A stretch of 64,000 nt of DNA. Source: Pseudomonadota bacterium. Lineage in GTDB: Bacteria; Pseudomonadota; Gammaproteobacteria; Ga0077536. Numbering within the stretch: position 1 is the first letter of the stretch; every line of letters begins with the position of its first letter. A program made the position numbers and the translations under genes. Below are positions 24,297-40,155 of this stretch, piece after piece. The DNA is taken from assembly GCA_018668255.1 (NCBI GenBank), contig JABISZ010000073.1, positions 35,185 through 99,184 on the forward strand, in the 5' to 3' direction. Under the pieces are notes generated by a model, which made no database searches, was not told the origin of the DNA, and saw nothing but the letters and a program-made list of their open reading frames with translations.

Positions 24297-24335
24297 ATTA
24301 CCTTAATCGCACGTGCGGGCACCATATTTTTCTTT

Positions 24336-24953
24336 CTAACCTAATTCTTTCAGGGCCTCGATCTTCATTGTTAATTGTCGAAGGAGGCTTTTAATGCCAT
24401 CTTTTTCCATTATGTAAGAATATTCAGCTTTCTTTAGGGCTAGGTCTGAGACTCCCTCCGAAATTACATTTACGATAAGCCAGCCTTCTGTGTTTTTCCT
24501 CAAGAGGTATTTCAGTGATGTCCTGTCCCCGTTGTCCGACAGTAGGCTTGTACTTAAGGAAAGGGAGTTATTTCTTGATTTTCGCTCAACAATTATAAAT
24601 TTCTGACCGGAGTAGTTTGAAAAGTGGTGCGCATAGGTTGATATGCTGAGCGATCGCATGACGCTCACGAACTCCTGTTTATCCTCGTGGGACAGTACTT
24701 CCCATTTTTCCCCGAGGACTACTTTACTGATTAGTGGAAAGTTAAAACTTTGACTCACAACGTTTCTGATTATGTCTATTCGGCCGGCATGGCCCAAGCT
24801 TTTTTCAGATTTCATTGCTGTTAGCAGCACTTCGTGCAAATTGAGAACTATTTCCTCGCCGCCGAGCGAGCGATCTCCTCCCCAACCAGGAGTACTAAAT
24901 AGGCACAGAATAGAAAAAATTATGACGATTCGATAGAAATTGGCCTTACCCAT
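24336..24953 (-). CDS. Periplasmic MlaC/Ttg2D-family lipid-binding protein, HpnM-like by context
   Basis: 205 aa with a signal peptide and the MlaC-like conservation pattern (..VLGEKW..Q..F, EGVSDLALKKAEY..GIKSLLRQL). It lies immediately downstream of the hpnI/B-like and hpnH genes. Confidence 0.5.
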   Translation of the reverse strand: MGKANFYRIVIIFSILCLFSTPGWGGDRSLGGEEIVLNLHEVLLTAMKSEKSLGHAGRIDIIRNVVSQSFNFPLISKVVLGEKWEVLSHEDKQEFVSVMRSLSISTYAHHFSNYSGQKFIIVERKSRNNSLSLSTSLLSDNGDRTSLKYLLRKNTEGWLIVNVISEGVSDLALKKAEYSYIMEKDGIKSLLRQLTMKIEALKELG

Positions 24954-26144: not shown

Positions 26145-27281
26145 TTAAGCGACTTCTCTTTTTTCCGTACCAGCTTTTTCTATGATATTTCCCATTGGGA
26201 TAATAGTCTGAGACTCAGCTTCAGGCTCTTCTTCATAGTAGAACGGAACCTCTGGTGCAAGATCCCCTTGGGTCTTTGGACCAGCTAAAAATACTTTCAG
26301 TGCCTTAAGCGGGTTATTAAACGTATCGTCAACCGCAGTAGCTTCATATCCGCAATGAACCATACAGTCAGCGCACTTCGGATTAACACCAGTACCATAT
26401 TTATCCCATGCGGTATCGTTTATTAATTCATCGAAGGTTGACGCGTAACCTTCTCCCACAAGCAGGTAACACGGTTTCTGCCAACCAAAAACATTTCGAG
26501 TGGGATTCCCCCAAGGCGTACAGTGATAGGTCTGGTTTCCGGCCAAAAAATCTAAATATAACGTAGATTGATTAAAGCGCCATTTTTTCCCCTTGCCCGC
26601 TTTAAATATATCTCTAAACAGATTTTTACTTGCTGATTTTTTAAGAAATACGTCTTGCTTTGGGGCTCTTTCATAGGAATAGCCGGGAGATATGGTGACG
26701 CCTTCTACACCAAGAGCCATCATTTCGTCCATAAAGTCACTTACTTCATCTGGTGTTTCCCCTTGGAACAGCGTGCAGTTCACAGTGACGCGAAAGCCTC
26801 GTTGAAGAGCCTTTTTAATGACACTTACGCATTTGTCATATACGCCCTTCCGGCATACAGACGCATCATGTCGTTCTCGACCTCCATCCAAATGTATGGA
26901 AAATGTAAGATACTTTGACGGCTCATACGAATCCATGTGCTTATCAAGAAGGATGGCATTAGTGCACAAATAAACAAACTTTTTACGATCGAGATACCCT
27001 TGCACTATCTGCCGCATTTCTTTGTGTATGAGGGGTTCTCCACCTGCAATCGAGACCATTGGTGCTCCGCACTCATCGATGGCTTCCATACATTTTTCAT
27101 AGCTCAGGCGCTTGTTAAGTATGTCAGACGGGTAGTCTATTTTTCCGCAACCAGAGCAAGCTAGATTACAACGGAATAATGGCTCCAGCATTAAGACGAG
27201 TGGATACCGCTTAACTCGTTTTAGTTTTTGGCTGAGAATATATCGACCTACTCGATATTGCTGGACTAGTGGAACACCCAT
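26145..27281 (-). CDS. hpnH: Radical SAM adenosylhopane synthase HpnH
   Basis: 378 aa with CNLACSGCGKI (Cx3Cx2C) about 35 residues from the N-terminus. The length and the MGVPLVQQ..YILSQKLKRVKRYPLVLMLEPLF start fit the HpnH family. Confidence 0.75.
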   Translation of the reverse strand: MGVPLVQQYRVGRYILSQKLKRVKRYPLVLMLEPLFRCNLACSGCGKIDYPSDILNKRLSYEKCMEAIDECGAPMVSIAGGEPLIHKEMRQIVQGYLDRKKFVYLCTNAILLDKHMDSYEPSKYLTFSIHLDGGRERHDASVCRKGVYDKCVSVIKKALQRGFRVTVNCTLFQGETPDEVSDFMDEMMALGVEGVTISPGYSYERAPKQDVFLKKSASKNLFRDIFKAGKGKKWRFNQSTLYLDFLAGNQTYHCTPWGNPTRNVFGWQKPCYLLVGEGYASTFDELINDTAWDKYGTGVNPKCADCMVHCGYEATAVDDTFNNPLKALKVFLAGPKTQGDLAPEVPFYYEEEPEAESQTIIPMGNIIEKAGTEKREVA

Positions 27282-27465: not shown

Positions 27466-27511
27466 TCACACCCTAAGGTAATTGCTGGCAAATTGTGAGA
27501 AAAATAATAAT

Positions 27512-29368
27512 ATGACGAATGGAAAGAAATACTCGCTACTCGACGAAATTGATAGCCCAAAGAGTATGAGAAAGTTACCGGAGGATCAGTTAATTGATTT
27601 GGCCTCCGAAGTTAGAGAGTTCCTCTTGGAGAGCATTAGCCAGGTCGGTGGTCACTTTGCTTCAGGTTTAGGAACTGTAGAACTTACTATCGCACTTCAT
27701 TATTTATTTAATACACCAGAAGACCGTATAGTCTGGGATGTAGGACATCAAGCTTATCCGCACAAAATTTTGACAGGGCGAAAAGATCGACTGCACACCA
27801 TCCGTCAGCACGAAGGTCTTGCACCATTTCCGAAGAGAGATGAGAGTCCATACGATACCTTTGGAGTTGGCCACTCCAGTACTTCTATAAGTGCTGCACT
27901 AGGGATGGCTATAGCTGCGGAGCATGACGGTACTGGTCGGCGTGCGGTAGCTGTTATCGGGGATGGAGCGATGACAGCCGGAGTAGCTTTTGAGGCAATG
28001 AATCATGCTGGAGATCTTGGTACTGATTTACTTGTTATTTTGAACGACAACAACATGTCTATTTCTCCAAATGTGGGAGCGCTTTCTAACAGGTTTGCGC
28101 AAATACTATCTGGGAAACTTTATACCAGTGTGCGAGAAGGAAGTAAGAAGATGTTGTCTCAGATGCCGTCCGTCTGGGAGTTAGCTAGACGAGCTGAGGA
28201 GCATGTCAAAGGCTTGATTGTCCCTGGAACACTATTTGAAGAGTTTGGTTTTAATTATATCGGTCCCATAGATGGACACGATTTGCCGACCTTACTCTCT
28301 ACTCTGAAAAACATTAAAAAGCTTTCTGGGCCTCAATTGCTACATGTAATAACAAAGAAAGGTAAAGGTTATGGCCCTGCTGAGTCTGACCCGATTAAAT
28401 ATCATGGTGTCTCCCCATTTGATCCAGAGGTAGGGATAAAGAAATCCCCCGTTAAAAAAGCTCCAAATTATAGCGATGTCTTTGGCGATTGGATCTGTGA
28501 TATGGCTGATCAAGATAGAAGGCTCGTAGCTATTACTCCTGCGATGAGAGAAGGCTCAGGTCTAGTCCGTTTTGAAACAGAATTTCCAAAGAGATACTTC
28601 GATGTAGCGATAGCAGAACAGCACAGTATAAATGTAGCCGCAGGTATGGCCTGTGATGGTGTTAAACCCGTAGTGGCAATTTACTCAACCTTTTTGCAGA
28701 GAGGTTACGACCAGGTAGTGCATGATGTTTGTAATCAGAACCTTCCTGTTCTTTTTGCCCTAGACCGTGCCGGCTTAGTTGGTGCAGATGGGCCAACGCA
28801 TAATGGGTGTTATGATTTATCTATTTTGCGGTGCTTGCCAAATATGACCATTATGGCGCCGTCCGACGAGAATGAGTGCAGGCAAATGTTGTACACGGGG
28901 TTCATGATGGATAGTCCAGTGGCTGTTCGCTATCCCCGAGGAACTGGTCCCGGCGCAGAGATAGAGCAACAGATGACAGCAATACCCCTAGGTAAAGCCA
29001 GCTTAAAGCGCAGAGGGGCTAAAGTTGCTTTGTTAAGTTTTGGCACGACGTTGCAGATCGCGCTGAATGTGGGCGAACGTTTAGACGCTACAGTCGTTAA
29101 CATGCGTTATGTTAAGCCGCTCGACACGGACATGATCTTGGAAATGGCTGGTTCTCATGACACCCTCATAACAATAGAAGAAAACATGGTTGCTGGTGGC
29201 GCCGGTAGTGCCGTTAATGAAGTTTTAGCGTTACATGGTAGACACTTGAAGATTTTAAACTATGGATTACCCGACAGGCTTATTCAGCATGGATCGCGTG
29301 ATGACATGCTCGTGGATGCGGGCTTGACCGAGGAAGGTTTTGAGGAGTTTGTAAAAGCCCAGTTGTGA
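27512..29368 (+). CDS. dxs: 1-deoxy-D-xylulose-5-phosphate synthase (MEP pathway entry)
   Basis: TPP-binding GDGAMTAG, conserved GHxSTS and transketolase-like domains. The ORF track starts at a TTG at 27482; the first ATG ([13 protein letters not shown]) is at 27512 and aligns with Dxs N-termini. Confidence 0.95.
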
Positions 29369-29382
29369 AATTACTGAGGAGA

Positions 29383-30456
29383 CTATCTTAGAGTTTTAGT
29401 TAAAGCTTCCAAGAGTCTGTTCATATCATTCTCAGAGATTGCACCCATCAGAGATAATCTGAAAACCTTAGTTGAAAAGTGTCCTTGGCCTGCGTAGATA
29501 ATGAATCCAAGCGACTTGAGTTCATCGTGTAAATGCTGATACACCTTACCTAATGGCAGTTGGAACGTGTTGAGAACGCAGGAAGATTCAGATAGCTCTA
29601 TTAGTGGTTTTATCCCGAAAGAGAGCAACTTTTTCTGCACTTTTGACATTCTGCTAGAAAACAACTGATGTCGAGCTTGCCAGCCCCCTTCCTCTAAAAA
29701 CTCGTTCATCGCCTCATCAAAGGCGTAAAAGCATTGCACTGATTGTGTGAAAGGCGTTTCACCTAGATCTTGCTTAACAAGGTACTGGGCTAGGTCCAGG
29801 TAAACTGATTTTGCGGGGTGGGTTGTTTGAAAAAGTACTCGTCGGGCAACAACGAAAGCTGTTCCTGGTACACCATGTAGGCACTTGTTCGCTGTCGCGG
29901 CACAGGCATCAAGCTCCCACTTTTCGAAGTCTATACTTTCCCCCCCAAAACTACTTACACCATCCATTAACACGCGTGCCCCATGCTTCCGGCACACCTC
30001 AGAAATAGCTGCAATATCATTTAGGCGTCCAGTGGTAGTTTCGTGATGGACTATCGCTACATGTGAGTATCGAGATCCATCAAGCGCTTTATCTAGCTTT
30101 TTCAGTGAGATTACTTGATCCCATCCTGTACTGAGCTTTTCATGATCTATATTATGCGCAATCGCAATTTTGGTCATACGTTCACCATAAACGCCATTTT
30201 CTACGATCAGGATCTTTCCACTCGGAGGAACGCAACTTACAAGCATGGCTTCTACGGCCGCGGTCCCTGACCCAGTCAATAAAATACTTGCCCAAGTTTT
30301 GTTATCGAGCGCATATGCCGCAAGAATTTTTTGCCTAATTTTTCTCTGCAGGTTAGAGAATTCGATTTCCCTGTGACAAAGATCTTGGCCTTGCAGAGCG
30401 TCTCGCACTCGTTGGCTAAGTGTTACTGGTCCAGGATTTAAAAGAATCTGTTTCAC
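29383..30456 (-). CDS. phnW: 2-aminoethylphosphonate:pyruvate aminotransferase (PhnW/AepZ, class V)
   Basis: 357 aa. NPGPV, HREIEF, HHETTTG, SSFGG and ANKC..GVPG all match PhnW. Confidence 0.75.
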   Translation of the reverse strand: MKQILLNPGPVTLSQRVRDALQGQDLCHREIEFSNLQRKIRQKILAAYALDNKTWASILLTGSGTAAVEAMLVSCVPPSGKILIVENGVYGERMTKIAIAHNIDHEKLSTGWDQVISLKKLDKALDGSRYSHVAIVHHETTTGRLNDIAAISEVCRKHGARVLMDGVSSFGGESIDFEKWELDACAATANKCLHGVPGTAFVVARRVLFQTTHPAKSVYLDLAQYLVKQDLGETPFTQSVQCFYAFDEAMNEFLEEGGWQARHQLFSSRMSKVQKKLLSFGIKPLIELSESSCVLNTFQLPLGKVYQHLHDELKSLGFIIYAGQGHFSTKVFRLSLMGAISENDMNRLLEALTKTLR

Positions 30457-30492
30457 TATGTCTCTTATCCTTATAAGTGGTGAGTTATTGTT

Positions 30493-31632
30493 CTATCCAA
30501 TATGGCTTTTGAGACGGACTAAAACATCTGATGGAGCTATTGTAGGCCGAGGTAGACCTTTTGGCACTCCAGTTTGGATTTTCATATGCATGAACCGAGC
30601 GCCTCTATGGCTAGGCTCAGTTAGGAAGTCATGCAAAACTTCTAATTTATTGCTGCGCCAGACATTAGAGTAACCGCAGGCAACAGCTATTCCATCAAAC
30701 TGGGTGTCTTTAGAAACAGTCGCTTGACCACCAGTAGAGTCATGCGCTTCGTTGTCTAGTAACAAATGAGAAAAGTTAGGTGGATTACATGCCCCTATGG
30801 TTGCAAGATTGCCTAGTCGCATTAGTGCGGCCCCATCGCCGTCTATGACTAGTACTTTTAAATCAGGCCGACTAAGCGCTAATCCTAGACCGAGTGACGA
30901 AGCGCACCCCATGGATCCAACCATATAGAAATAATTCGGGAGATCGGCGATAGAGTAAAGCTCGCGACCGGTATATCCGGTAGTGGCTATGACGACGGTA
31001 TTAGTTTGTTGAGTCGTCTTTACTATCGATTGCAGAACTTGGTTTCTCGTTAGTGTAGTAACGTCAATATTTTCATCACCGTGATAAAAAGTATTTTGTT
31101 TCTTGTTTGGGAGTTGATTGGATAGATTAAAGTTCGCCACCGATCCTTTTTGCATAATCAAAGAGTAGGATTCATGTTTTTCTTCTATGCTTTGCGAGAT
31201 GTTGGCTAGGGTTGAATTAATTTCCTTAGTTGCTCGTGGGAAACTCTCATAGCTTATGCCAATACAATCGAATAACTCTTTTGTAATATTGCCCATCAGT
31301 TCATGTTGTGGTTCGTCCTGTAGTCCAGGTTCACCTCGATGAGTACAGATTACCAAGACGGGGATCTTAAAAGTATGTATGAGAGAAGTGAGCGGGCTAA
31401 TAGCATTACCGAGCCCTGAGTTTTGCATTAAGGCAACACTTTTTTTCCCACCTATAGAAGCACCTGCTGCTATAGCTATTGCATCGCCTTCATTCGCGGC
31501 TGAAACATAATTGAGCGAACTTGCGCTGATTACGTAGTTTATTAGTGGGGTTAAAAAAGAGCATGGTACTCCTGCGTACCAATCATACCCTTGATTTTTT
31601 AGCGGCAATATAAACTCTTCTGCTCGTATCAC
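30493..31632 (-). CDS. ppd: Phosphonopyruvate decarboxylase (TPP-dependent)
   Basis: 379 aa with a TPP-binding GDGAALM..N motif. Its length and the N-terminus MIRAEEFI..YDWYAGVPCS are typical of AepY/Ppd. It lies directly downstream of the PEP mutase. Confidence 0.75.
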   Translation of the reverse strand: MIRAEEFILPLKNQGYDWYAGVPCSFLTPLINYVISASSLNYVSAANEGDAIAIAAGASIGGKKSVALMQNSGLGNAISPLTSLIHTFKIPVLVICTHRGEPGLQDEPQHELMGNITKELFDCIGISYESFPRATKEINSTLANISQSIEEKHESYSLIMQKGSVANFNLSNQLPNKKQNTFYHGDENIDVTTLTRNQVLQSIVKTTQQTNTVVIATTGYTGRELYSIADLPNYFYMVGSMGCASSLGLGLALSRPDLKVLVIDGDGAALMRLGNLATIGACNPPNFSHLLLDNEAHDSTGGQATVSKDTQFDGIAVACGYSNVWRSNKLEVLHDFLTEPSHRGARFMHMKIQTGVPKGLPRPTIAPSDVLVRLKSHIG

Positions 31633-31643
31633 GTATTAGCGCC

Positions 31644-33290
31644 TTATTTTGCGTGGTTTGCGGCAAATTCGCTAGCACGCTCGAGGTCATGCAAGGAATT
31701 CACATTTATCCAGTGGCCATGAATGTATATCACACGAATAGGACGACCATTTAATACAAGCTTGTTTAACAAATCTTTCATATCAAACGAAGGAAATTTT
31801 TTGCTTTCGGACAGCTGATCTAAAGCTTCTTCTATCCATTTTCTGCCTTCTCCATGGACTCGCATCATGCCGATCCAGCGTCCATCGGAGCTCGAATTCT
31901 CTCTACAAGACTGCTCGCTGATCTGCTGGAGAAGAATGTCTTGGCCCCATAAAGACCGGTCATCTGGTCCGCTACAATAGGCATAATCTGGAGTCTCATT
32001 TGTAGATGATTCCAGCATTTGGGAATCTACAATGATAGTTATTTCACGATCAGACTCTAAAAGGCTTCTGAGCACATACCCTCGGAATAAGACATCGCCA
32101 TACATAAGCACCATATCATCGGAGAAACTCTTTTTTGCGCATAATAGAGATGTCAACTCTCCAGTTGTCGCGTGCAAATCATTGACAATCAGTTCTATTT
32201 TTTTAGAAGGGATAGTTTCATGTTTGTAGCCACCCACTACAGCAAGATTGTCTATCCCATGTTTCTTGAATTGATCTATAAGTCTGCCGAGTAAAGGCTT
32301 GCCGTTAACGGGCAACATTACTTTGGGTCGGTCTGCAGTCAGATTTTCCAAACCAGATCCTTGTGCGGCAGCGAGTAGGATGGCTTTTAAGTCTCTTTTT
32401 GTGCCTAAGAAATACTGTTTTTCTGCTGCTTGCAACTCCTCGGCCCCTTGCAAGCGAAAAATTTCTTTGACAGTCGCGATGTCGTCTTCTACCTCAACTA
32501 AATTTTCTTTCAACTGAATTTTTCTTGCAGTATCTTGCATTGCGGTTACTGAGCTTCTAATTAAATGGTTGGCCCAAATCACAAGGTTTATCTTCGCGTC
32601 TCGAAAGACTTTCGTGGGGGTGCTGTAGTACTTTGTAGGGACTATTACAAGCGGAGCTCTGCCGGCCCATTCGTGGGCAAATTCGATGATTTGATCCGCT
32701 TCGGAGTGAGCGCTATGAATTAATATTGCATCTGCTCCTGCCTTTCTATAGGCCTCTGCTCTTCGCAGTGCTTCTGCTGTATTCCAACCGGCAATATAGG
32801 CCTCGACGCGGGCTACAATACAAAAATCATCATCTGTTTGAGAGTCTTTTCCTGCGGCAATTTTCCCACAAAATTCATCTATATTTGCTAGCTCTTGTTT
32901 CTCTCCCGAAATAAAGCTATTTGTCTTAGGGAATAATTTATCTTCTATGCATACCCCAGATACTCCACGTTGTTCCAGCTTTCGAACCAGACGACGCATA
33001 TTGTTGAAATTTCCATACCCGGTATCGCCATCCAAAAGAATTGGGATATTGCAGGCGTCGACCATAAATTCGACCATATCGACCACCTGTGTCCAACTGG
33101 CTTCGTTGTTATCTCTAACGCCATATTGAGCCGATAAGGCAAGGCCACTAGCCCATATTCCACTAAAGCCTGCTTCTTCAGCGATTCGTGCGCTTATTCC
33201 ATTGTGCGCTTCTAAAATGAACTCGAGGTTGTCCGAGAGCAGGAGAGCTTTCAGCTTTGAGGTATTTGTTTTTTTTTGATTAAGTAACAT
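31644..33290 (-). CDS. ppm: Bifunctional phosphoenolpyruvate phosphomutase / phosphonate cytidylyltransferase (Ppm-PntC-type fusion)
   Basis: 548 aa. The N-terminal ~290 aa carry the PEP mutase signature ([33 protein letters not shown]). The C-terminal ~250 aa is a nucleotidyltransferase fold ([25 protein letters not shown]). Fusions of this kind are reported for phosphonate-activating cytidylyltransferases. Confidence 0.8.
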
Positions 33291-34023
33291 TTATTTTAGG
33301 CAATATTTCTTGTGAAGCTCGCTCAATATCCTCAGGGTAATCTATTTCTATCCAAGGGAGTCCGGTTATGTCCTCCACTCCTATATTATAGCCTGCATTG
33401 ATCGCAAGTTCTCGCAGCGCTTCTTCATGCGGTTGAGACTCCATACCAGCTTCAATAAATTCAGCGATAATTTCTTTCAGTCTTGCCGCAGTACTTGCGC
33501 AAAATTTGAAGAAACCGACTGACTCGCCTATTTGGTCATATATCAGGCTAGGGTCTATTTTTTTTCTGAATTCCACAATTCGCTCATTCTCTATGCATAT
33601 TTTTACGGGCTCATCTCCGTCTATGTAATGCCGGTCAATTAAGAAACAATCTTTAGAAGGGCTATGGATTAGCCGAGATAATATCTCAGGATGATATAAG
33701 ACATCAGCATCCATAACTAGAACATCACTGGTACCATCACACAAAACATCTCGCATACTCCAAAGGCTAACAATTGAACCCAAATCATATAAAGGGTTGT
33801 GCTCATGAGATATATCCGTCAACCCTTTTTGCTCAAGCCTTTTGAGTACGTTGAGTGCCTCATGTCCAAGGCAGAGATTGATGTCAGTTACTCCTAGTTT
33901 CCTAAGTGTGCGAATGTGTCTTTCAAGAAGAGAGGTACCGTCAAATTCTAAGAGGCACTTTGCAGTCACATGCGCAGAGCTAATACGATTCCCCACTCCT
34001 GCGGCCAGTATTATAGCCTTCAT
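33280..34023 (-). CDS. Nucleotidyltransferase (LicC/sugar-phosphate NTP-transferase family)
   Basis: 247 aa beginning [14 protein letters not shown], a G-x-G-x-R nucleotidyltransferase motif. It overlaps ppm by 11 bp and the upstream gene by 4 bp. Confidence 0.65.
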
Positions 34024-34808
34024 TGTGGCTTCTTAAGCAGGCGCGCCAGAGTTTTGCCAACGCCGAAATATGCGAATGCGTCTTTCAGCTGTCCGTAGAA
34101 ATATCCAAAGTTTGAAATACCCTTATCCGTAAGGTACTCAAGCGTCAATACGGTTCGCTTGTCTCGCGGTTTGGCCGGTGTAACTCGATGTCGAATGTTG
34201 TCTCCATTAAAAAAAACAAGAGAACCGGGTGAAATTTTCGTGCTACACATTATAGTTTCCTTACGATCATCTTTGCTAAACAGCTCGTATTCGAGCGCAC
34301 AGCAAGAGTCGTCTACGAGGCCTATCAGACAGGTATATCGAGAACCTCTATAATATGATTTGTCGTAATGAAATCCGATGTGGTCTCCTTCTCGGTCGTA
34401 GGAATACACGGCATAGGCATGAGGATCGCTCTCAGGGCAGTATAGGAGTGATTTACCGACTACAGAACTTAAGAAGCTCCTGAGTGAAGCTGAAGTGTAG
34501 ATAGAGCTGAATATTGGAGCGTTCAGGTCCAAATCAAATCTCGAGATGCTACCCCCTTTTTTGTGTTTAGGTATAAAACTTCTGTGAATATATGGTTCGA
34601 GTTGAGGTAGACTCTCTTGCATAGAGCACAGAAGAGAGTGGGGTAAAAAATCGTCTATTTGTATAAACTCGTCGTTTGTTCGAAATTCAGTCTGTGAGCT
34701 GTTGGCTTGTATGCTACTCAATCGATTTAAAGGGTCGATTTCAGCAGCTGATTTGTAACTAGCGATGGTCATGTGACGGTAAACAACCTTTTTTTCACTG
34801 ACGCTCAT
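34020..34808 (-). CDS. 2OG-Fe(II) oxygenase-like protein (putative hydroxylase)
   Basis: 262 aa. An HxD..H arrangement (GDHIGFHYD ... NGDNIRHRV) with a downstream R fits the double-stranded beta-helix fold. The family assignment is tentative. Confidence 0.4.
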   Translation of the reverse strand: MSVSEKKVVYRHMTIASYKSAAEIDPLNRLSSIQANSSQTEFRTNDEFIQIDDFLPHSLLCSMQESLPQLEPYIHRSFIPKHKKGGSISRFDLDLNAPIFSSIYTSASLRSFLSSVVGKSLLYCPESDPHAYAVYSYDREGDHIGFHYDKSYYRGSRYTCLIGLVDDSCCALEYELFSKDDRKETIMCSTKISPGSLVFFNGDNIRHRVTPAKPRDKRTVLTLEYLTDKGISNFGYFYGQLKDAFAYFGVGKTLARLLKKPQ

Positions 34809-34911: not shown

Positions 34912-35934
34912 TTGGCTAATAAAATGTCAAAAATCATCAAGTTTCTATTTTTATTATTCGGTATCGGGTTGCTGGTAGCGGTTACTTACCAGACTGACTT
35001 GACCCAATTAGCGAGGCACATTTCTGCTATTGGTCTTTTCGGGGTTGCTTTAATTCTTACCGTTTATATTCTGTACTTCGGAGCTGATGTCCTGAGTTGG
35101 CAAATCACTATGGTGAAGATTCCTGTGACATTTCTTTGGTTCGGTCGTCTTTACGTGGTGCGGATGATTGGCGAAGCTTATAACAACCTTACGCCGACAG
35201 CATCCTTAGGGGGGGAGCCCATTAAGGCGTGGTTGTTAAAATCGAATTGGGCGATCCCACTTAGAGATTCAGCATCCTCGTTGGTTATTGCAAAAACAGC
35301 AAGCATGTTCTCCTTATCCCTTTTCGGTAGTGTAGGTGTCCTCTTTCTTTTTCAGAGTTCTGCATTTGCGGGGGAGCAGAAAAGTATTGCGCTAGGCGGA
35401 TTGATTTTTATAGTGTTTTCTTCCGTGATCTTTTTTATGATGCAATATTTCCGCTTTTCATCCTATCTGGTGGGTAAAATTTCAAGCAATCGATTTGCTG
35501 GATTGTTAAAAAAAGCTTTTAGCACAATAGAAGATATAGACAAGAGGTTTGATGTCTTCTATCGGGAGCATAGTCTGCGTTTCGGATTCGCTTGCTTAGC
35601 GGCTATGGCTAATTGGTTAATCGGCGTTGTTGAGGTTTTTGTGATCTTGTATCTCATTGGTTATCCATTGTCTCTTGCGGAGGTGTTTATTATAGAAAGC
35701 CTTGTCCAACTGGTCCGTACAATCACATTTTTTGTTCCGGCAGGGCTGGGCACTCAAGAAGGGGCATTTTTTATTGTCGTCGGTGCCCTTACTGGGGTGT
35801 CTTCTGCAGGCTTGGCAGTGGCTCTCATCAGGCGATTTAGAGAGTTAATTTGGTTGGCAGTAAGTTTTTTGTTAGCGATATTTTACTCAGTAAGGCCCAG
35901 AACGATTTCAAAATTAGATTTTAAGGAGCTTTAG
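34912..35934 (+). CDS. UPF0104 flippase-like/LPG-synthase-TM family membrane protein, HpnL-like
   Basis: 340 aa with about 8 predicted TM segments and charged loops typical of the lysyl-PG-synthase TM (flippase-like) family. It is embedded in the hpn/phosphonate block. Confidence 0.5.
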   Translation: MANKMSKIIKFLFLLFGIGLLVAVTYQTDLTQLARHISAIGLFGVALILTVYILYFGADVLSWQITMVKIPVTFLWFGRLYVVRMIGEAYNNLTPTASLGGEPIKAWLLKSNWAIPLRDSASSLVIAKTASMFSLSLFGSVGVLFLFQSSAFAGEQKSIALGGLIFIVFSSVIFFMMQYFRFSSYLVGKISSNRFAGLLKKAFSTIEDIDKRFDVFYREHSLRFGFACLAAMANWLIGVVEVFVILYLIGYPLSLAEVFIIESLVQLVRTITFFVPAGLGTQEGAFFIVVGALTGVSSAGLAVALIRRFRELIWLAVSFLLAIFYSVRPRTISKLDFKEL

Positions 35935-35943
35935 TTCTTTCAT

Positions 35944-36936
35944 TCAACCTATCATTTTCATTTTACGGAACCACTCCAATGAGTCATGAATGGCTATTTT
36001 TGCGGGGCGCGCACTATAGCCAAGTTCTTTAGAGGCTCGTGCCGATGAAAAGAACATTTTATGTGCAGCCATCCTTAACCCATCAACTGTGGCTTGCGGT
36101 TCCGCCCCATTAATTAGGCCTGCCCACACTTCAGAGGCAAATGCAATTGGGTAGACAATCGCTCTGGGAATTCTTATGCGAGGTGGAGGATGGTTACAGT
36201 AAGCGGCAACAATGTCGAGGATCTCTTTTAGAGTTTGGTTCTCGCCGCCAAGAATATATCTTCGTCCAACTTGACCTTTGTCATAAGCCAGCAAATGTCC
36301 TGTTGCTACATCGTCTACATGAGCGACATTCAGTCCGGTATCAATGTATGCAGGCATGCGACGATTGGCGGCATCTCTTATGATTCTTCCTGTAGGGGTC
36401 GGTTTAGGATCACGCGGTCCGATCGGTGTAGACGGGTTTACAATGACAGCGGGCAGATTTTCCTCCGCTACAAGACGATCGACAACTTTTTCAGCTAAAA
36501 ATTTTGAACGTTTGTAGTGACCAATCATGTCCTTAAGATTTGAAGGCGTATCTTCGCAAGATGAAGTTCCATCATTCATTAAGCCGATAGTAGCGACACT
36601 GCTGGTATAAATTATTTTACTAACCCCTGCTCGCATTGCGGCACGCATAATGTTTTCTGTTCCTGCTACGTTATTAGCATACAATTCATCAGGGTTTTTA
36701 ACCCATAATCTATAGTCGGCCGCAACGTGATAGAGAGTGTCACATCCTTTTAACGCACGTTCCAACGAGCCACCATCTTGGAGGTCTCCGTTAACAACTG
36801 GAACATCTAGATCAGAAATGGTTCGGGTATCACTCGATACCCGCTTGAGTATCTTTAAAGGGACCCCTTTACTCAGGAGCGCTCTCGCTACAGCATTTCC
36901 AAGGAAGCCGGTTGCACCTGTTACAAGAGTCGTCAT
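35944..36936 (-). CDS. hpnA: NAD-dependent epimerase/dehydratase, hopanoid-associated HpnA-like
   Basis: 330 aa with the Rossmann motif VTGATGFLGNAV and a YxxxK-type SDR core. It is coupled by a 4-bp overlap to the CDP-alcohol phosphatidyltransferase, in the same operon as hpnN and hpnG. Confidence 0.6.
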   Translation of the reverse strand: MTTLVTGATGFLGNAVARALLSKGVPLKILKRVSSDTRTISDLDVPVVNGDLQDGGSLERALKGCDTLYHVAADYRLWVKNPDELYANNVAGTENIMRAAMRAGVSKIIYTSSVATIGLMNDGTSSCEDTPSNLKDMIGHYKRSKFLAEKVVDRLVAEENLPAVIVNPSTPIGPRDPKPTPTGRIIRDAANRRMPAYIDTGLNVAHVDDVATGHLLAYDKGQVGRRYILGGENQTLKEILDIVAAYCNHPPPRIRIPRAIVYPIAFASEVWAGLINGAEPQATVDGLRMAAHKMFFSSARASKELGYSARPAKIAIHDSLEWFRKMKMIG

Positions 36937-37541
36937 TTTTCTTCAACCATGATTTTGCCGTACTGGAAAACGACAAATGCAGCAGCTAAAGGAGCGCCAA
37001 GGCTAGCTAGGTATAAAAAATAATTTAAACCCTCTAAGAGGGTGACAATTGGAATTAAATACAGAATATCTTCTGCCTCGAACCCCCCCCAAAAAGCCTG
37101 ATCAATTTTCGACTTTCCATGCTTTTCTTCTATTAAATAGCGTAAGTGGAAGATAAGTGCTACTGATACTCCTGAAATTACGCCGGCTTCTAAGGCGTAA
37201 TTAGTTTCTGGGGAGAGAGCAACACCAACGCCTATTCCCACAAACATTAATACGGTCACTAAGGCATCAGATGCTAGATCAAAAATATGTCCAAATCTAC
37301 TTTGTTTATCTGCAAGTCGAGCTAACTCTCCATCCATATGATCAATAAAGTTAGATGAGATGATGAGTACTGCAGCTGTATTGAGATAAGTTCCCTTGGC
37401 AAAGAGCCACGCGCCTGCAAGCCCTACAACTAGTCTTAGTAGAGTGAAGTGATTAGGATGGATTGTGTTGGAGTCTTTAAAAGGCGCTATCAGCCAAGCC
37501 GCAGCTTTCGCATCCCAAGGTTTATGTCGCAATTTCCGCAC
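36933..37541 (-). CDS. CDP-alcohol phosphatidyltransferase family protein
   Basis: 202 aa with about 5 TM segments and a DHMDGELARLADKQSRFGHIFDLASDAL motif, i.e. D-G-x2-A-R...G-x3-D-x3-D. It overlaps hpnN by 20 bp and hpnA by 4 bp. Confidence 0.8.
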   Translation of the reverse strand: MRKLRHKPWDAKAAAWLIAPFKDSNTIHPNHFTLLRLVVGLAGAWLFAKGTYLNTAAVLIISSNFIDHMDGELARLADKQSRFGHIFDLASDALVTVLMFVGIGVGVALSPETNYALEAGVISGVSVALIFHLRYLIEEKHGKSKIDQAFWGGFEAEDILYLIPIVTLLEGLNYFLYLASLGAPLAAAFVVFQYGKIMVEEK

Positions 37542-40155
37542 CCCTTTTTACATATCTGCGAAGTAGTAGTGGAAGACATCCCAGCGTACTAATTAAAGTT
37601 ACTGAAAGGCCTAAGCTGAGTAAAAGACCCATACTTCCTGTACCCGCATGAGGTGAAATAGCCAAGTTGCCAAAGCTAGCCATGGTAGTCAGTGTGCTTA
37701 GAAACACTCCTCGTGCGGTACTGGTTTGCATGAAATTTATAGATAGGCCGTCCTGGTTAATATGACGATGAATAATATGAAGCGTGCTATCAACGCCAAT
37801 GCCGACGATCAAGGGGAGAGCAATGATGTTGGCAAAATTAAACGGCAAGCCGACTAAAACCATGATGGAAGTTGTTGCTACACACGCTAAGAGCATAGGT
37901 ACGAGAGCGATTACTACATGGGAAGATTTTCTCAAAGACACCCACAGCACTCCAATGATAACGAGACAGGCGGTCGCAAATGCTTGAGCGAACGAACTAA
38001 GTACTGAACGACTCGCTTCCAGGCTGACAATAGGGGTGCCAGTAGCACTAGGGCCGGTAACTTTCCTCACCTCTGCTATAAAGTCAGAGATTTTATCATT
38101 CGAATCTAATGGTTCCTGCGGATTAATTTGCAGTCTGATACGCCCTTCTTCGGTTACCCATCGACTTTTAAGGACGGCGGGTAAATTCTCAAATGTAACT
38201 AAGTTTGGAGACAGGCCCTCATTTAGTTTTTTTATCAATGGAGAGAAGTGACGCATAGTCACTGCCTCCAAATCCTGTGCATATTTAAAGTTTTGGTCGC
38301 GATCGGCGGTACTCACTCGATTTAATATTTTTTGTAGTTGAACATTATAAAGGAGTGATGCTTTTGAAGGCTCGGAATGCTGTTTTATCGTTTCAATATT
38401 GCGAATTAAACTAGTTTTGAGGGCTCCAAGATCAAGGTTCGGTACGTCGATATCTTCGGCAAGTTGAAATTCTCCTCCTATCACTAGCCCTAACTCATCG
38501 ATGACAGTTAGTTTTGAGGCTTGCTTTTGCGGGATGAAAGACGACACCAAAGTAACGTCACCAACCTCTGAGACTTCAGATAGCCGTTTCTTTATTTGTA
38601 GGGCATTAGCCATATCGCTTGCAATAAATGAAATCTCGTCTAATGGACTCTCTTTGTCTAGAGATATTTCATATAAAGTTTTTACAGACTCAGCATCTTG
38701 GTTATTTAGATGGAGTGGGTTGATATCGAAAGAGATATCTTTTGAGATATATATGCCTACGGACACAAAAACAACTAGCAGAGTTATGAAGTATTTTGAC
38801 GATGTTTCGGTGGTCCCGTGATGAGAGAGCTCTTTTCTATCACCCGAAGGTCTTTTATTTTTTTGTGCCGGTAGTACTGACAGGCAGGCAGGAAGAACAG
38901 TGAAGCTCATGAGAAAGCTTACAAGCATACCCACGCCGGCTATCATTCCTAGCTCTCCTACTCCTTTGTAGTCAGTTGGGATGAATGCGAGAAAGCCTAC
39001 TGCACTAGTTAGCGCACATAATCCGAGCGGCACTACTCCATGGCGAGCCGCAGCAGTTATGGCCTCAAGCTTAGAGCGAAAGAGACTTTCTTCTTGGAAT
39101 CGCAAGCAGTAGTGAATGGTAAAGTCAGCGCCTAGGCCCACATATAAGATAGCAAAAGCTATCGAAATCATATTTAGTGTGCCTATAGCAACCGTCGCGA
39201 ATGCGGCTGTTAAGGCTAATCCTGCGAGCAAGGTGAAAAGAGTTGCTGCCAGCAAAGAAACGGATCTTAAGCCTACCAGAAGTACGACAATAATTAAGAT
39301 GAACGAGAGCGCTGCGGCTTGCTTTGCTCCTTCTATGACGCTTAGCAATTCCTCGTGGCCAAGTGCGGCAGGACCAGTGAGTCTTATGGTAATCTCCGGC
39401 CAAAGTTCTGAGTCGAAGATATTTATTACAGATCGCAGGTCAGATATGACCTTATCAGCAGGTAAAATCTGGTTGAAGTCCAACTGAGGTGTGAGAACGA
39501 TTATGCGCCTGTGCGTTTTCCCCGATGCGCGGTCGTCTTCTAAGAAACTCTGCCAAGACGTAGGGATGGAGTTTGTTCCTGAGCGTTCTAACTCTGTGGC
39601 CAGCGTCATTATGAAGCTTTCTGACTCAGGATCGTCCGTGTTTTTTGCCCGTTTATTTATCTCATTAGTGAGTGCGAGCAGCCCATTCAAACTCGGATCG
39701 GCAGCTAACCTTCCAAGCATTGCTTGAGCATTTGTGAGTTTTTTCGCTAATATTTCTACTTCTTGAAGAGAGAGATATAGAAGCTTGTTTTCTCGAAAAA
39801 AAACACTGTTTTGAGGGTAAAAAACTTGTTGTGGACTAAAACCTAACTCAGAGAGCTGAGATATGAAGAGTTCAGCGGCTTCATCAGTTAAGTCGGGAGT
39901 TGGCCCTTCAATCACTATCGCGATCGTGTCAGAGAAAAAAGGGAAAGCCTGCTTGAAGTCTGTTTGTGCGACTCTCCATGGTACCTCGGACGAGATCATA
40001 TCTTCGGTGTTGGTGTTGATTTTTGCATGCAATATGGTTACCCAGGTACATACACTAGCGGCTAGAAAAGCCATACATAGAACCCAATATTTGTGTTTTA
40101 CGCTGGACCGAGTAATGGCTGCCATGGCCTTTAAGGAGATGTTCTTTAGAGACAT
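37522..40155 (-). CDS. hpnN: RND/MMPL-family hopanoid transporter HpnN-like
   Basis: 877 aa with two six-TM bundles separated by large periplasmic domains. The size and architecture are typical of HpnN/MMPL exporters. It overlaps hpnG by 10 bp. Confidence 0.7.
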   Translation of the reverse strand: MSLKNISLKAMAAITRSSVKHKYWVLCMAFLAASVCTWVTILHAKINTNTEDMISSEVPWRVAQTDFKQAFPFFSDTIAIVIEGPTPDLTDEAAELFISQLSELGFSPQQVFYPQNSVFFRENKLLYLSLQEVEILAKKLTNAQAMLGRLAADPSLNGLLALTNEINKRAKNTDDPESESFIMTLATELERSGTNSIPTSWQSFLEDDRASGKTHRRIIVLTPQLDFNQILPADKVISDLRSVINIFDSELWPEITIRLTGPAALGHEELLSVIEGAKQAAALSFILIIVVLLVGLRSVSLLAATLFTLLAGLALTAAFATVAIGTLNMISIAFAILYVGLGADFTIHYCLRFQEESLFRSKLEAITAAARHGVVPLGLCALTSAVGFLAFIPTDYKGVGELGMIAGVGMLVSFLMSFTVLPACLSVLPAQKNKRPSGDRKELSHHGTTETSSKYFITLLVVFVSVGIYISKDISFDINPLHLNNQDAESVKTLYEISLDKESPLDEISFIASDMANALQIKKRLSEVSEVGDVTLVSSFIPQKQASKLTVIDELGLVIGGEFQLAEDIDVPNLDLGALKTSLIRNIETIKQHSEPSKASLLYNVQLQKILNRVSTADRDQNFKYAQDLEAVTMRHFSPLIKKLNEGLSPNLVTFENLPAVLKSRWVTEEGRIRLQINPQEPLDSNDKISDFIAEVRKVTGPSATGTPIVSLEASRSVLSSFAQAFATACLVIIGVLWVSLRKSSHVVIALVPMLLACVATTSIMVLVGLPFNFANIIALPLIVGIGVDSTLHIIHRHINQDGLSINFMQTSTARGVFLSTLTTMASFGNLAISPHAGTGSMGLLLSLGLSVTLISTLGCLPLLLRRYVKRGAEIAT

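What the first reader, a model, noticed from the sequence alone, without database searches (positions are those of the whole stretch)
31644..33290. PEP mutase fused to a nucleotidyltransferase domain (Ppm-PntC-type bifunctional enzyme)
The 548-aa protein carries the full PEP phosphomutase signature ([20 protein letters not shown]) in its first ~290 residues and an LicC/PntC-like G-x-G-x-R nucleotidyltransferase domain in its last ~250 residues. Such fusions channel the thermodynamically unfavourable mutase product toward nucleotide-activated phosphonate (CMP-AEP or a CMP-phosphonate intermediate). This is a hallmark of phosphonate-tailoring of lipids and glycans rather than phosphonate catabolism.
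Basis: partly seen in the sequence, partly recalled or inferred. Interest (0 to 1): 0.6.

Follow-up and report, generated by a model that had tools for sequence, protein, structure and literature searches.

The report
PEP mutase fused to variant nucleotidyltransferase
The gene really does encode a carbon-phosphorus bond-forming enzyme fused to a nucleotide-transferase-like domain, which is the commonest known form of this enzyme; the two less ordinary points are that the fused domain lacks the standard catalytic motif (the neighbouring gene has it) and that the phosphonate operon sits inside a hopanoid lipid gene cluster.

Summary
Confirmed, on the minus strand. Window 31644-33290 is one uninterrupted 548-aa ORF. 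Residues 1-295 are a genuine PEP mutase (TIGR02320, 390 bits against a cut-off of 320; [10 protein letters not shown]; 1e-119 to the Mytilus enzyme). Residues 296-548 are a LicC/PntC-fold nucleotidyltransferase domain (PF12804; model pLDDT 92; best PDB fold match PntC 6PD2). It is not a frameshift: more than 120 full-length homologues and 80 genomic loci share the architecture.

The architecture is already known. About a third of all Ppm enzymes carry this fusion (Rice 2019). The gene set is the published seven-gene "Burkholderiales_CDP-OH / group 1 phosphonolipid" core.

Two corrections and additions:
1. It reads A-Q-G-S-G, and the family consensus is A-S-R-G-x-x. None of 80 loci has the motif there. 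The overlapping upstream stand-alone transferase (33280-34023) has the motif and the AEP-binding residues, so it is the better PntC orthologue.
2. The phosphonate genes are interleaved with hopanoid genes (HpnA, G, H, L, M, N and an HpnB-like gene, plus Dxs). About 24 gammaproteobacterial species-level genomes show the same gene order, and some Nostocales show a similar adjacency. The product is uncharacterised.

Verdict: an ordinary new member of a known kind, with a testable lead.

The parts
31644..33290 (-). Ppm-NT1 fusion gene: 548 aa plus stop codon
   Evidence: Single ORF. Two Pfam domains. 120 full-length homologues with the same architecture.
32406..33290 (-). PEP mutase domain, residues 1-295
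   Evidence: PF13714 E 3.8e-60. TIGR02320 scores 390.2 against a cut-off of 319.55. Aligns with Mytilus Ppm 1M1B residues 4-291 with an offset of +2. D60, D87, D89, E116, K122, N124, S125, R161 and H192 are conserved.
32916..32945 (-). Ppm-specific motif [10 protein letters not shown], residues 116-125
   Evidence: Read directly. Rice 2019 use this motif to separate Ppm from other isocitrate-lyase-family members.
31647..32405 (-). NT1: LicC/PntC-fold nucleotidyltransferase-like domain, residues 296-548
   Evidence: PF12804 at 43.9 bits. Model pLDDT 92. Best Foldseek match is PntC 6PD2, E 1.3e-16. 46 invariant residues among 42 sequences.
32322..32378 (-). Variant signature loop L305-K323 ([18 protein letters not shown]) in place of GXG(T/S)RX4-8PK
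   Evidence: Gly313 aligns with Tde Arg15 and Lys323 with Lys25. None of 80 loci has the canonical Arg.
33280..34023 (-). NT2: stand-alone 247-aa nucleotidyltransferase with the canonical signature; the likely PntC orthologue
   Evidence: PF12804 at 47.8 bits. Best PDB hit is Tde-PntC 6PD1 over residues 2-244, E 7.4e-9. R13, K22, D105, D107, K154, E200 and W-I-E-I-D are kept. Its stop codon overlaps the start of the fusion gene by 11 nt.
34020..34808 (-). 2-oxoglutarate/Fe(II) oxygenase, 262 aa; predicted to hydroxylate AEP at C1
   Evidence: PF23169 HalD 2.5e-11 and a weak PF13640 hit. It has an H-Y-D facial triad plus a distal His, so it is a hydroxylase and not a halogenase. It belongs to the published seven-gene core.
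30493..31632 (-). Phosphonopyruvate decarboxylase (Ppd)
   Evidence: TIGR03297 scores 424.4 against a cut-off of 312.5.
29383..30456 (-). 2-aminoethylphosphonate aminotransferase, biosynthetic type
   Evidence: TIGR03301 PhnW-AepZ scores 390.4 against 360.8. The catalytic-pathway model TIGR02326 (catabolic PhnW) scores 274.7, below its cut-off of 400.8.
36933..37541 (-). CDP-alcohol phosphotransferase, 202 aa; predicted head-group transferase
   Evidence: PF01066 at 60.4 bits. The motif D-x2-D-G-x2-A-R-x8-G-x3-D-x3-D is intact. Homologues sit beside the phosphonate core in Nostocales.
34912..35934 (+). HpnL-like membrane protein (LPG_synthase_TM)
   Evidence: PF03706 at 95.4 bits. TIGR03476 HpnL scores 145 bits, below its cut-off of 196. 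Listed in the phosphonolipid cluster by PMC5987646.
35944..36936 (-). HpnA, hopanoid-associated sugar epimerase/dehydratase; lies between two phosphonate-system genes
   Evidence: TIGR03466 scores 468.8 against 367.65.
37522..40155 (-). HpnN, RND hopanoid transporter
   Evidence: TIGR03480 scores 799.8 against 751.85.
40146..40829 (-). HpnG-like phosphorylase
   Evidence: TIGR03468 scores 157.5 bits, below its cut-off of 187.1.
40832..41914 (-). Squalene/phytoene-synthase-family protein
   Evidence: TIGR01559, TIGR03465 and TIGR03464 all hit, and all are below their cut-offs.
27482..29368 (+). Dxs, 1-deoxy-D-xylulose-5-phosphate synthase
   Evidence: TIGR00204 at 907.6 bits.
26145..27281 (-). 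HpnH, adenosyl-hopene transferase
   Evidence: TIGR03470 scores 553.4 against 225.
24978..26093 (-). HpnB-like hopene-associated glycosyltransferase
   Evidence: TIGR03469 scores 377.1 against a cut-off of 379.25, so it is marginally below.
23505..24953 (-). HpnM (MlaC-like, 24336-24953) and an MlaA lipoprotein (23505-24296)
   Evidence: TIGR03481 scores 172.6 against 160.1. PF04333 MlaA scores 235.9 bits.

Best explanation
The gene encodes a two-domain protein of the widespread (1-hydroxy-)2-aminoethylphosphonate lipid head-group pathway.

Shown by sequence:
- The N-terminal domain is a complete PEP mutase, which would make phosphonopyruvate.
- The next two genes are phosphonopyruvate decarboxylase and a biosynthetic AEP transaminase. 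Together they give AEP, and the decarboxylation provides the thermodynamic pull.
- The operon also holds a 2OG/Fe(II) hydroxylase, a canonical PntC-like nucleotidyltransferase (NT2) and, nearby, an intact CDP-alcohol phosphotransferase and an HpnL-type membrane protein. This is the published seven-gene core.

Inferred:
- NT2 makes CMP-AEP or CMP-hydroxy-AEP.
- The CDP-alcohol phosphotransferase moves the phosphonyl head group onto a membrane-lipid alcohol.

The fused C-terminal domain (NT1) is a paralogue of NT2 with the same fold. It belongs to a phosphonate-pathway-specific subfamily that has swapped the GXG(T/S)R loop for A-[S/T/A]-[R/Q]-G-x-x. It keeps the P-K lysine, gains a conserved basic residue in front of it, and keeps the Y-G-D aspartate and a C-terminal Asn. 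My best reading is that NT1 still binds CTP and acts as a second cytidylyltransferase with a different substrate, working on a pathway phosphonate other than the one NT2 uses. The alternative, treated as a rival below, is that it has become a nucleotide- or product-binding regulatory module for Ppm.
For: - Domain identities.
- Fusion conserved in more than 120 proteins and in 80 genomic loci.
- All seven core genes are present and match the description in PMC8942020.
- NT2 keeps the residues that Rice 2019 showed to be needed (R15, K25, K153) and the AEP-binding acidic residues.
- NT1 is under purifying selection. It has 46 invariant residues across 42 sequences. Its median identity to the window is 49.8%, compared with 45.8% for NT2, 46.8% for the oxygenase and 49.7% for the CDP-alcohol transferase.
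- NT1 keeps K323, D399 and N531, and [R/K]321 is conserved.
- An NT1-type variant domain is also found fused to an AEP transaminase (P0190), the same architecture as the experimentally active Tde1415.
- Translational coupling of NT2 with the fusion gene through an 11-nt overlap.
Against: - No Ppm-fused PF12804 domain has been assayed in any paper I could find. The alignment in Rice 2019 contains none.
- R15A in Tde-PntC leaves less than 10% activity. NT1 has Gly at that position in this window, and the position varies in relatives.
- In this window's clade the family's substitute Arg is Gln, and W-x-D-V-N has become W-I-N-V-N.
- One canonical transferase plus one CDP-alcohol transferase would be enough on paper, so the need for a second cytidylyltransferase is unexplained.
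- The substrate of NT1 cannot be deduced. Glu104 of PntC is Tyr in NT1, and the equivalents of K153 and E196 could not be aligned.
Confidence: 0.5

Rival explanations
1. NT1 is a catalytically dead or much weakened pseudo-nucleotidyltransferase. It is retained as a ligand-binding module for CTP or CMP-phosphonate that regulates or scaffolds Ppm. GMPPA plays this role for GMPPB, and the nucleotidyltransferase-like domains of eIF2B gamma and epsilon are similar cases. NT2 would then do all the cytidylylation.
For: - The canonical Arg is absent in 80 of 80 loci. The two loop positions that are strictly T/S-R in active enzymes vary freely in NT1 (DG, EG, EE, QE, KE and others).
- The substitute Arg is replaced by Gln repeatedly, including in this window.
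- E-I-D has become D/N-V-N.
- NT2 accompanies NT1 in 77 of 80 loci and always has the canonical signature.
- In a Streptomyces locus NT1 stays attached to Ppm although no NT2 or CDP-alcohol transferase is nearby. This ties NT1 to Ppm itself rather than to head-group transfer.
Against: - The P-K lysine, the Y-G-D aspartate and an Asn at the second metal position are invariant. By my recollection GlmU uses Asn at that position.
- A conserved extra basic residue before P-K could replace the lost Arg.
- An NT1-type domain is fused to AEP transaminase exactly like the active Tde1415.
- There is no direct evidence of allostery in any Ppm.
Confidence: 0.25
2. NT1 is the pathway's PntC. It nucleotidylates AEP or an earlier intermediate such as phosphonopyruvate directly at the mutase, and so pulls the unfavourable PEP to phosphonopyruvate equilibrium by channelling.
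For: - Physical fusion to Ppm in about 33% of all Ppm enzymes.
- Best structural match is PntC.
- The literature labels the fused domain PntC.
- Fom1 is a precedent for a catalytically relevant cytidylyltransferase fused to Ppm.
Against: - The signature that defines PntC is not met, and Glu104 is Tyr.
- A better PntC candidate is encoded immediately upstream.
- Ppd, the known pull, is present and typical.
- The Fom1 domain belongs to a different family (PF01467), is N-terminal, and acts on hydroxyethylphosphonate, a late intermediate, not on the mutase product.
- Nothing tested here bears on channelling.
Confidence: 0.15
3. The fusion is an assembly or annotation artefact that joins two genes.
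For: None. The neighbouring genes do overlap, which is the kind of junction where a one-base error could fuse two genes.
Against: - There is one continuous frame with a conserved linker.
- The architecture is identical in more than 120 clusters drawn from independent sources (NCBI, JGI, ENA, Logan), including complete genomes.
- 80 independent genomic loci across Gammaproteobacteria, Cyanobacteria and Streptomyces show it.
- The fusion junction is inside the ORF, not at the overlap.
Confidence: 0.01

Closest known systems
Ppm fused to a PF12804 (MobA-like/LicC-like) NTP-transferase domain, as inventoried by Rice et al. 2019 (PMC6697681)
   Same: Same two Pfam domains in the same order. The EDKXXXXXNS motif is present. 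Found beside ppd and an AEP transaminase.
   Different: Nothing differs at the level of architecture; this is a new member. That paper did not examine the signature loop of the fused domain.
'Burkholderiales_CDP-OH' gene-cluster group, equal to the 'group 1 phosphonolipid' clusters of Yu et al. 2013 (Li & Horsman 2022, PMC8942020; Nostoc version in PMC5987646)
   Same: All seven core genes are present: Ppm-NTase fusion, Ppd, AEPT, 2OG/Fe(II) oxygenase, a second NTase, a CDP-alcohol phosphotransferase and an LPG_synthase_TM/HpnL-like protein. The predicted head group is 1-hydroxy-AEP.
   Different: Here the core is split and interleaved with hopanoid genes. HpnA lies between the CDP-alcohol transferase and HpnL. 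Dxs, HpnH, the HpnB-like gene, HpnM and MlaA lie on one side, and HpnN, HpnG and a squalene-synthase-like gene on the other. The host is an uncultured marine gammaproteobacterium. The product of the whole group is still uncharacterised.
Tde-PntC (Tde1415, PDB 6PD1/6PD2), a CTP:AEP cytidylyltransferase fused to AEP transaminase
   Same: Same fold: it is the best Foldseek match of NT1 and the best PDB sequence match of NT2. It also belongs to a phosphonate cluster.
   Different: Tde-PntC has G-L-G-S-R...P-K, Glu104 and E-I-D. NT1 has A-Q-G-S-G...R-P-K, Tyr397 and N-V-N, and is fused to Ppm instead of AEPT. NT2 matches the Tde-PntC residues.
Fom1 of fosfomycin biosynthesis (cytidylyltransferase-Ppm fusion)
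   Same: A Ppm physically fused to a nucleotidyltransferase that acts on a phosphonate of its own pathway.
   Different: The Fom1 transferase domain is PF01467, is N-terminal and acts on hydroxyethylphosphonate. No PDB sequence match to that family was found for NT1.
Nitrosococcus GCF 731 and Roseomonas shc-ppm clusters ('phosphonate-terpene' hybrids in antiSMASH surveys: PMC8942020, PMC7285500, PMC8776678)
   Same: A Ppm/AEP core physically linked to squalene and hopanoid genes. The product is unknown.
   Different: Those reports only note the adjacency. The present window, the roughly 24 syntenic gammaproteobacterial loci and the Nostoc C117 locus show interleaving with side-chain (HpnH, HpnG, HpnA) and transport (HpnN, HpnM, MlaA) genes. 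I did not compare the window directly with the Nitrosococcus sequence.

Membership tests
PEP mutase (TIGR02320; PF13714 subset) | Whole-protein score above the curated equivalog cut-off | tested here: met
   390.2 bits against 319.55. The rival families phosphonopyruvate hydrolase (251 against 374) and methylisocitrate lyase (139 against 354) fail.
PEP mutase (TIGR02320; PF13714 subset) | EDKXXXXXNS motif | tested here: met
   [10 protein letters not shown] at residues 116-125.
PEP mutase (TIGR02320; PF13714 subset) | Catalytic and Mg-binding residues of the Mytilus enzyme (D58, D85, D87, E114, K120, N122, S123, R159, H190). The residue list is from my own knowledge. | tested here: met
   All are identical in the phmmer alignment to 1M1B, at an offset of +2.
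PEP mutase (TIGR02320; PF13714 subset) | Interconversion of PEP and phosphonopyruvate | not testable with these tools
   Needs an enzyme assay.
PntC, phosphonate-specific cytidylyltransferase (Rice 2019); applied to the fused domain NT1 | PF12804 domain with the LicC/PntC fold | tested here: met
   43.9 bits against a cut-off of 27. Best Foldseek match is 6PD2, TM 0.78.
PntC, phosphonate-specific cytidylyltransferase (Rice 2019); applied to the fused domain NT1 | GXG(T/S)RX4-8PK consensus, with Arg15 and Lys25 needed for activity | tested here: not met
   The loop reads A309-Q-G-S-G313 ... R-P-K323. The Arg is replaced by Gly and the first Gly by Ala. The Lys is present. None of 80 loci is canonical.
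PntC, phosphonate-specific cytidylyltransferase (Rice 2019); applied to the fused domain NT1 | Acidic residues that bind the AEP amine (Tde Glu104, Glu196) and Lys153 | tested here: inconclusive
   The Glu104 position is an invariant Tyr397. The equivalents of Lys153 and Glu196 could not be aligned.
PntC, phosphonate-specific cytidylyltransferase (Rice 2019); applied to the fused domain NT1 | CTP + AEP gives CMP-AEP + PPi | not testable with these tools
   No assay of any Ppm-fused PF12804 domain was found.
PntC; applied to the neighbouring gene NT2 (33280-34023) | Signature loop, Lys, metal and AEP-binding residues | tested here: met
   G9-V-G-N-R13 ... A-K22, D105 (Asp, as in LicC), D107, K154, E200 and W-I-E-I-D are all aligned with Tde-PntC residues 4-238. 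The fourth residue is Asn rather than Thr/Ser.
Seven-gene 'Burkholderiales_CDP-OH / group 1 phosphonolipid' core | Ppm(-NTase), Ppd, AEPT, 2OG/Fe(II) oxygenase, second NTase, CDP-alcohol phosphotransferase and an LPG_synthase_TM-type protein | tested here: met
   All seven lie within 29383-37541. The definition is from PMC8942020 and PMC5987646.
Fom1-type cytidylyltransferase-Ppm fusion | N-terminal PF01467 cytidylyltransferase-like domain | tested here: not met
   No PF01467 hit. The extra domain is C-terminal PF12804.
Hopanoid biosynthesis gene cluster (context) | Hpn-family genes above their curated cut-offs | tested here: met
   HpnH 553 against 225, HpnN 800 against 752, HpnA 469 against 368, HpnM 173 against 160. 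HpnB (377 against 379), HpnG (158 against 187) and HpnL (145 against 196) fall just below.
Hopanoid biosynthesis gene cluster (context) | Squalene-hopene cyclase present | tested here: not met
   I scanned only some of the large ORFs in the 64-kb window, and none of those is a cyclase. The cyclase may lie elsewhere in the genome.

The most novel reading that the evidence does not exclude
The operon does not decorate diacylglycerol. Its CDP-alcohol phosphotransferase attaches (1-hydroxy-)2-aminoethylphosphonate from the CMP-activated donor to a side-chain hydroxyl of a bacteriohopanepolyol, or of its glycosylated form. This would give a phosphonate-headed hopanoid, a lipid class not described so far. 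HpnL, HpnN, HpnM and MlaA would export it. On this reading the long-unexplained 'hopanoid-associated' genes HpnL, and perhaps HpnA, belong to this head-group pathway. The Ppm-fused NT1 domain would be a distinct, non-canonical branch of phosphonate nucleotidyltransferases with its own role.
Probability: 0.2. Interest if true: 0.75.

Novelty: new member of a known kind. Interest (0 to 1): 0.35.

Why it matters
As a bare observation it matters little. The Ppm-NTase fusion is the commonest form of PEP mutase, and this cluster type is the most abundant phosphonate cluster in sequence databases.

It is useful for two reasons. First, the product of this very abundant cluster family has never been identified, and the role of having two nucleotidyltransferases has never been explained. 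The clean split found here gives a concrete hypothesis for enzymologists: the canonical signature is always in the stand-alone enzyme and never in the Ppm-fused domain.

Second, the phosphonate genes are tightly and anciently interleaved with hopanoid side-chain and transport genes in marine Gammaproteobacteria, and a similar adjacency occurs in Nostocales. This points to a possible phosphonate-bearing hopanoid, or at least to co-regulated membrane remodelling. Such a lipid would matter for marine phosphorus redox cycling, since phosphonates make up a large share of dissolved organic phosphorus. It would also matter for reading hopanoid biomarkers, and it could give a function to HpnL and HpnA.

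Tried and rejected
- Plus-strand reading of the given coordinates: full of stops. The gene is on the minus strand.
- Frameshift or assembly artefact: rejected.
- Other isocitrate-lyase-family identities for the N-terminal domain (phosphonopyruvate hydrolase, methylisocitrate lyase, carboxy-PEP mutase): all far below their cut-offs.
- Catabolic reading (PhnW/PhnX type): the transaminase passes the biosynthetic model and fails the catabolic one. Among the 16 genes of the 23.5-41.9 kb block that I scanned, none is a phosphonatase, PhnY*/PhnZ or C-P lyase gene.
- Fom1-like PF01467 domain: absent.
- Halogenase reading of the HalD-family oxygenase: it has H-x-D, not H-x-G/A.
- Finding a curated family for NT1, NT2 or their nearest canonical relatives: only sub-threshold hits to sugar-1-phosphate and inositol-phosphate nucleotidyltransferases.
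- Aligning the C-terminal half of NT1 to Tde-PntC to locate Lys153 and Glu196: hhalign aligns only the N-terminal half, and the MAFFT and BLASTP alignments disagree.
- Literature on a characterised product, on an assay of the fused domain, or on hopanoids carrying AEP: nothing found. Yu et al. 2013 is not held.
- Promoter and terminator scan: no more sites than in shuffled sequence. The only notable site is a 10-of-12 sigma-70-like match upstream of the oxygenase gene.
Full report
**Observation**

The coordinates 31644-33290 hold a single 548-codon ORF, but on the minus strand. The plus-strand translation is broken by many stops.

The first 295 residues are a complete PEP mutase.
- Pfam PEP_mutase covers residues 15-258 (E 3.8e-60).
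- The NCBIfam equivalog TIGR02320 scores 390.2 bits against a cut-off of 319.55.
- The sister families all fall far below their cut-offs: phosphonopyruvate hydrolase, methylisocitrate lyase and carboxy-PEP mutase.
- The domain aligns end to end with the Mytilus edulis enzyme (1M1B, E about 1e-120) at an offset of two residues.
- It keeps the [10 protein letters not shown] motif (residues 116-125), the D-G-D-T-G metal site and the other catalytic residues.

Residues 296-548 match Pfam NTP_transf_3 (PF12804, 43.9 bits against a cut-off of 27). An AlphaFold model built on 42 homologues is confident (pLDDT 92, pTM 0.90). Its best Foldseek match in the PDB is the phosphonate cytidylyltransferase PntC of Treponema denticola (6PD2, E 1.3e-16, TM 0.78). 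ST0452, UDP-glucose pyrophosphorylases, inositol-phosphate cytidylyltransferase and LicC follow closely.

**Not an artefact, and not new**

The 120 best database relatives are 529-594 aa long, 64-97% identical, and all carry the same two domains. A scan of one genome per species confirmed 586 matches by tblastn. The 80 loci kept all encode the fusion in one frame. They come from uncultured Gammaproteobacteria, many Nostocales and one Streptomyces. The window is about 92% identical in DNA to the marine MAG UBA4457 over 21.6 kb.

The architecture is well documented. Rice et al. [quoted passage not shown] PF12804 is the commonest partner, at 33% (PMC6697681). Li & Horsman 2022 describe a seven-gene core, 'Burkholderiales_CDP-OH', equal to the group 1 phosphonolipid clusters of Yu et al. 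2013. It consists of Ppm fused to a 'PntC', Ppd, AEP transaminase, a 2OG/Fe(II) oxygenase, a second PntC and two phospholipid-type genes. It is predicted to make a 1-hydroxy-AEP lipid that has never been isolated (PMC8942020). The same set was described in lichen Nostoc (PMC5987646).

All seven genes are present in the window.
- The oxygenase (34020-34808), NT2 (33280-34023), the Ppm-NT1 fusion, Ppd (30493-31632; TIGR03297, 424 bits) and the AEP transaminase (29383-30456) lie head to tail on the minus strand.
- The transaminase passes the biosynthetic model TIGR03301 and fails the catabolic PhnW model.
- The junctions are overlapping or nearly abutting.
- An HpnL-like LPG_synthase_TM protein (34912-35934, plus strand) and a CDP-alcohol phosphotransferase with an intact D-x2-D-G-x2-A-R-x8-G-x3-D-x3-D motif (36933-37541) lie next to them.

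Characterised PntC and LicC enzymes are defined by GXG(T/S)RX4-8PK. In Tde-PntC the substitutions R15A, K25A and K153A each leave less than 10% activity.

The fused domain (NT1) reads [18 protein letters not shown]. By MAFFT and by hhalign, Gly313 sits at the Arg15 position and Ala309 at the position of the first Gly. Only Lys323, matching Lys25, is kept. This is not a peculiarity of one sequence.
- Across the 120 close homologues and the 80 genomic loci the loop is A-[S/T/A]-[R/Q]-G-x-x-[L/F/M]. None has the canonical Arg.
- The two positions that are T/S-R in active enzymes vary freely.
- The residue aligned with the AEP-amine ligand Glu104 of PntC is an invariant Tyr.
- The C-terminal W-x-E-I-D metal motif is W-L-D-V-N in the family and W-I-N-V-N in this window.

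The stand-alone gene just upstream (NT2, 247 aa) is different. Its stop codon overlaps the fusion gene's ATG by 11 nt. It has G-V-G-N-R...A-K, M-D-A-D-V and W-I-E-I-D. It aligns with Tde-PntC over residues 2-244, matching Arg15, Lys25, Glu104 (as Asp, as in LicC), Asp106, Lys153 and Glu196. Tde-PntC is its best PDB hit. NT2 is found in 77 of the 80 loci, and 76 of those 77 have G-x-G-x-R. NT1 and NT2 are paralogues that align along their whole length, at 23% identity.

**Is NT1 decaying?**

No. NT1 has 46 invariant residues among 42 sequences that are 49-95% identical to it. Its median identity to the window across 78 loci is 49.8%. That is as high as NT2 (45.8%), the oxygenase (46.8%) and the CDP-alcohol transferase (49.7%), and close to Ppd and the transaminase. 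It keeps the P-K lysine, the Y-G-D aspartate and an invariant Asn at the second metal position. It also has a conserved Arg or Lys directly before P-K that canonical enzymes lack.

An exhaustive HMMER search of 1.84 billion representative proteins gave 103 sequences that include the signature region.
- 75 have the variant loop. Of these, 58 carry Ppm upstream, and at least five more are visibly truncated fusions.
- All 28 with a canonical loop lack Ppm.
- One variant-loop domain is fused to an AEP transaminase instead (P0190). That is the architecture of the active Tde1415.
- In the Streptomyces locus the Ppm-NT1 fusion sits with Ppd, AEPT, ATP-grasp, JmjC, AMP-binding and aminotransferase genes. 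There is no NT2 and no CDP-alcohol transferase.

NT1 is therefore a distinct nucleotidyltransferase subfamily specific to phosphonate pathways, with a rebuilt pyrophosphate loop. Rice 2019's alignment of cytidylyltransferases contains no Ppm-fused member. I found no assay of one.

**Mechanism**

Shown by sequence: Ppm, Ppd and AEPT make AEP; a hydroxylase-type oxygenase with an H-Y-D triad, a canonical PntC-like NT2 and an intact CDP-alcohol phosphotransferase are present.

Inferred: NT2 forms CMP-AEP or CMP-hydroxy-AEP, and the phosphotransferase moves the head group to a lipid alcohol. This parallels the Kennedy pathway and the archaeal IPCT-DIPPS pair, which is the best sub-threshold NCBIfam hit of NT2 and also a sub-threshold hit of the phosphotransferase.

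For NT1 I favour a still-active second cytidylyltransferase with a different substrate (overall explanation confidence about 0.5). Sequence alone cannot decide between them.

**Context**

The phosphonate genes are not merely next to hopanoid genes but interleaved with them. The order is:

squalene-synthase-like, HpnG-like, HpnN, CDP-alcohol transferase, HpnA, HpnL-like, oxygenase, NT2, Ppm-NT1, Ppd, AEPT, Dxs, HpnH, HpnB-like, HpnM, MlaA (23505-41914).

- Twenty-four species-level gammaproteobacterial loci carry the phosphonate genes with Dxs adjacent. Where the contig is long enough, they show this gene order almost unchanged.
- They do so although HpnN is only 36-42% identical and HpnG 29-35%.
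- In at least seven Nostocales loci, HpnH and HpnA homologues lie within a few kb of the core.
- In Nostoc sp. C117 the core abuts HpnH, HpnA, an RND transporter and an HpnG-like phosphorylase.

The literature notes similar adjacency in Nitrosococcus and Roseomonas only as a speculated 'terpene-phosphonate'. Recent hopanoid surveys list HpnA, HpnB and HpnL as of unknown function and do not mention phosphonates. No squalene-hopene cyclase was found among the large ORFs of the window that I scanned. Whether the acceptor lipid is diacylglycerol or a bacteriohopanepolyol is open.

**Verdict**

The finding is real and correctly read in outline, but it is a new member of a well-known kind. Two points are worth keeping. 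The first is the systematic signature split between the fused and the stand-alone transferase. The second is the conserved embedding in a hopanoid cluster. Both lead to direct experiments.

Noticed in passing
window 23505-41914: An 18-kb block in which the seven phosphonate-core genes are interleaved with hopanoid genes (HpnA, HpnG-like, HpnH, HpnL-like, HpnM, HpnN, an HpnB-like glycosyltransferase, an MlaA lipoprotein, Dxs and a squalene-synthase-like gene). Twenty-four species-level gammaproteobacterial loci carry the phosphonate genes with Dxs adjacent and, where the contig is long enough, the same gene order, despite only 30-42% identity in HpnG and HpnN.
   Followed up: partly
L049 (Nostoc sp. 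C117, NZ_CP170991) 9021-21328; also L033, L037, L059, L071, L073, L076: In Nostocales the NT2, Ppm-NT1, Ppd and AEPT core directly abuts HpnH, an HpnA-like gene, an RND transporter and an HpnG-like phosphorylase. The link between the phosphonate core and hopanoid side-chain genes therefore recurs in a second phylum.
   Followed up: partly
window 33280-34023 (-): The stand-alone nucleotidyltransferase upstream of the fusion gene is the one with the canonical G-x-G-x-R...K signature and a full-length match to Tde-PntC. Its stop codon overlaps the fusion gene's start codon by 11 nt.
   Followed up: yes
protein P0190 (611 aa): A nucleotidyltransferase domain with the variant signature (L-A-A-S-R-G-S-A-M) is fused N-terminally to an AEP transaminase (TIGR03301, 352 bits). 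The architecture is that of Tde1415, but with the NT1-type loop.
   Followed up: partly
L013 (Streptomyces sp. NPDC048191) 3700-20100: A Ppm-NT1 fusion 67% identical to the window's sits with Ppd and AEPT among ATP-grasp, JmjC, AMP-binding and class I/II aminotransferase genes. No second transferase or CDP-alcohol transferase was found within 10 kb. This looks like a small-molecule phosphonate cluster, and possibly a horizontal transfer.
   Followed up: partly
window 40832-41914 (-): The only squalene-synthesis candidate is a single 360-aa squalene/phytoene-synthase-family protein. It scores below the cut-offs of HpnC, HpnD and eukaryote-type squalene synthase alike. No squalene-hopene cyclase was found among the large ORFs of the 64-kb window that were scanned.
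   Followed up: partly
window 44233-44703 (+) and 45840-46907 (+): An azurin gene (TIGR02695, 141 bits) and a TIGR03617-family F420-dependent LLM oxidoreductase (348 bits, above its cut-off) lie just beyond the lipid block. An F420-type enzyme is somewhat unexpected in a gammaproteobacterium.
   Followed up: no
window 44907-45812 (+): A 301-aa ORF with no Pfam or NCBIfam match.
   Followed up: no
window 34903-34930 (-): The best sigma-70-like site in the region (TTGACA, 16 nt spacer, TATGGT; 10 of 12 matches) lies about 95 bp upstream of the oxygenase start, in the divergent gap shared with HpnL. The total number of promoter-like sites is no higher than in shuffled sequence.
   Followed up: no
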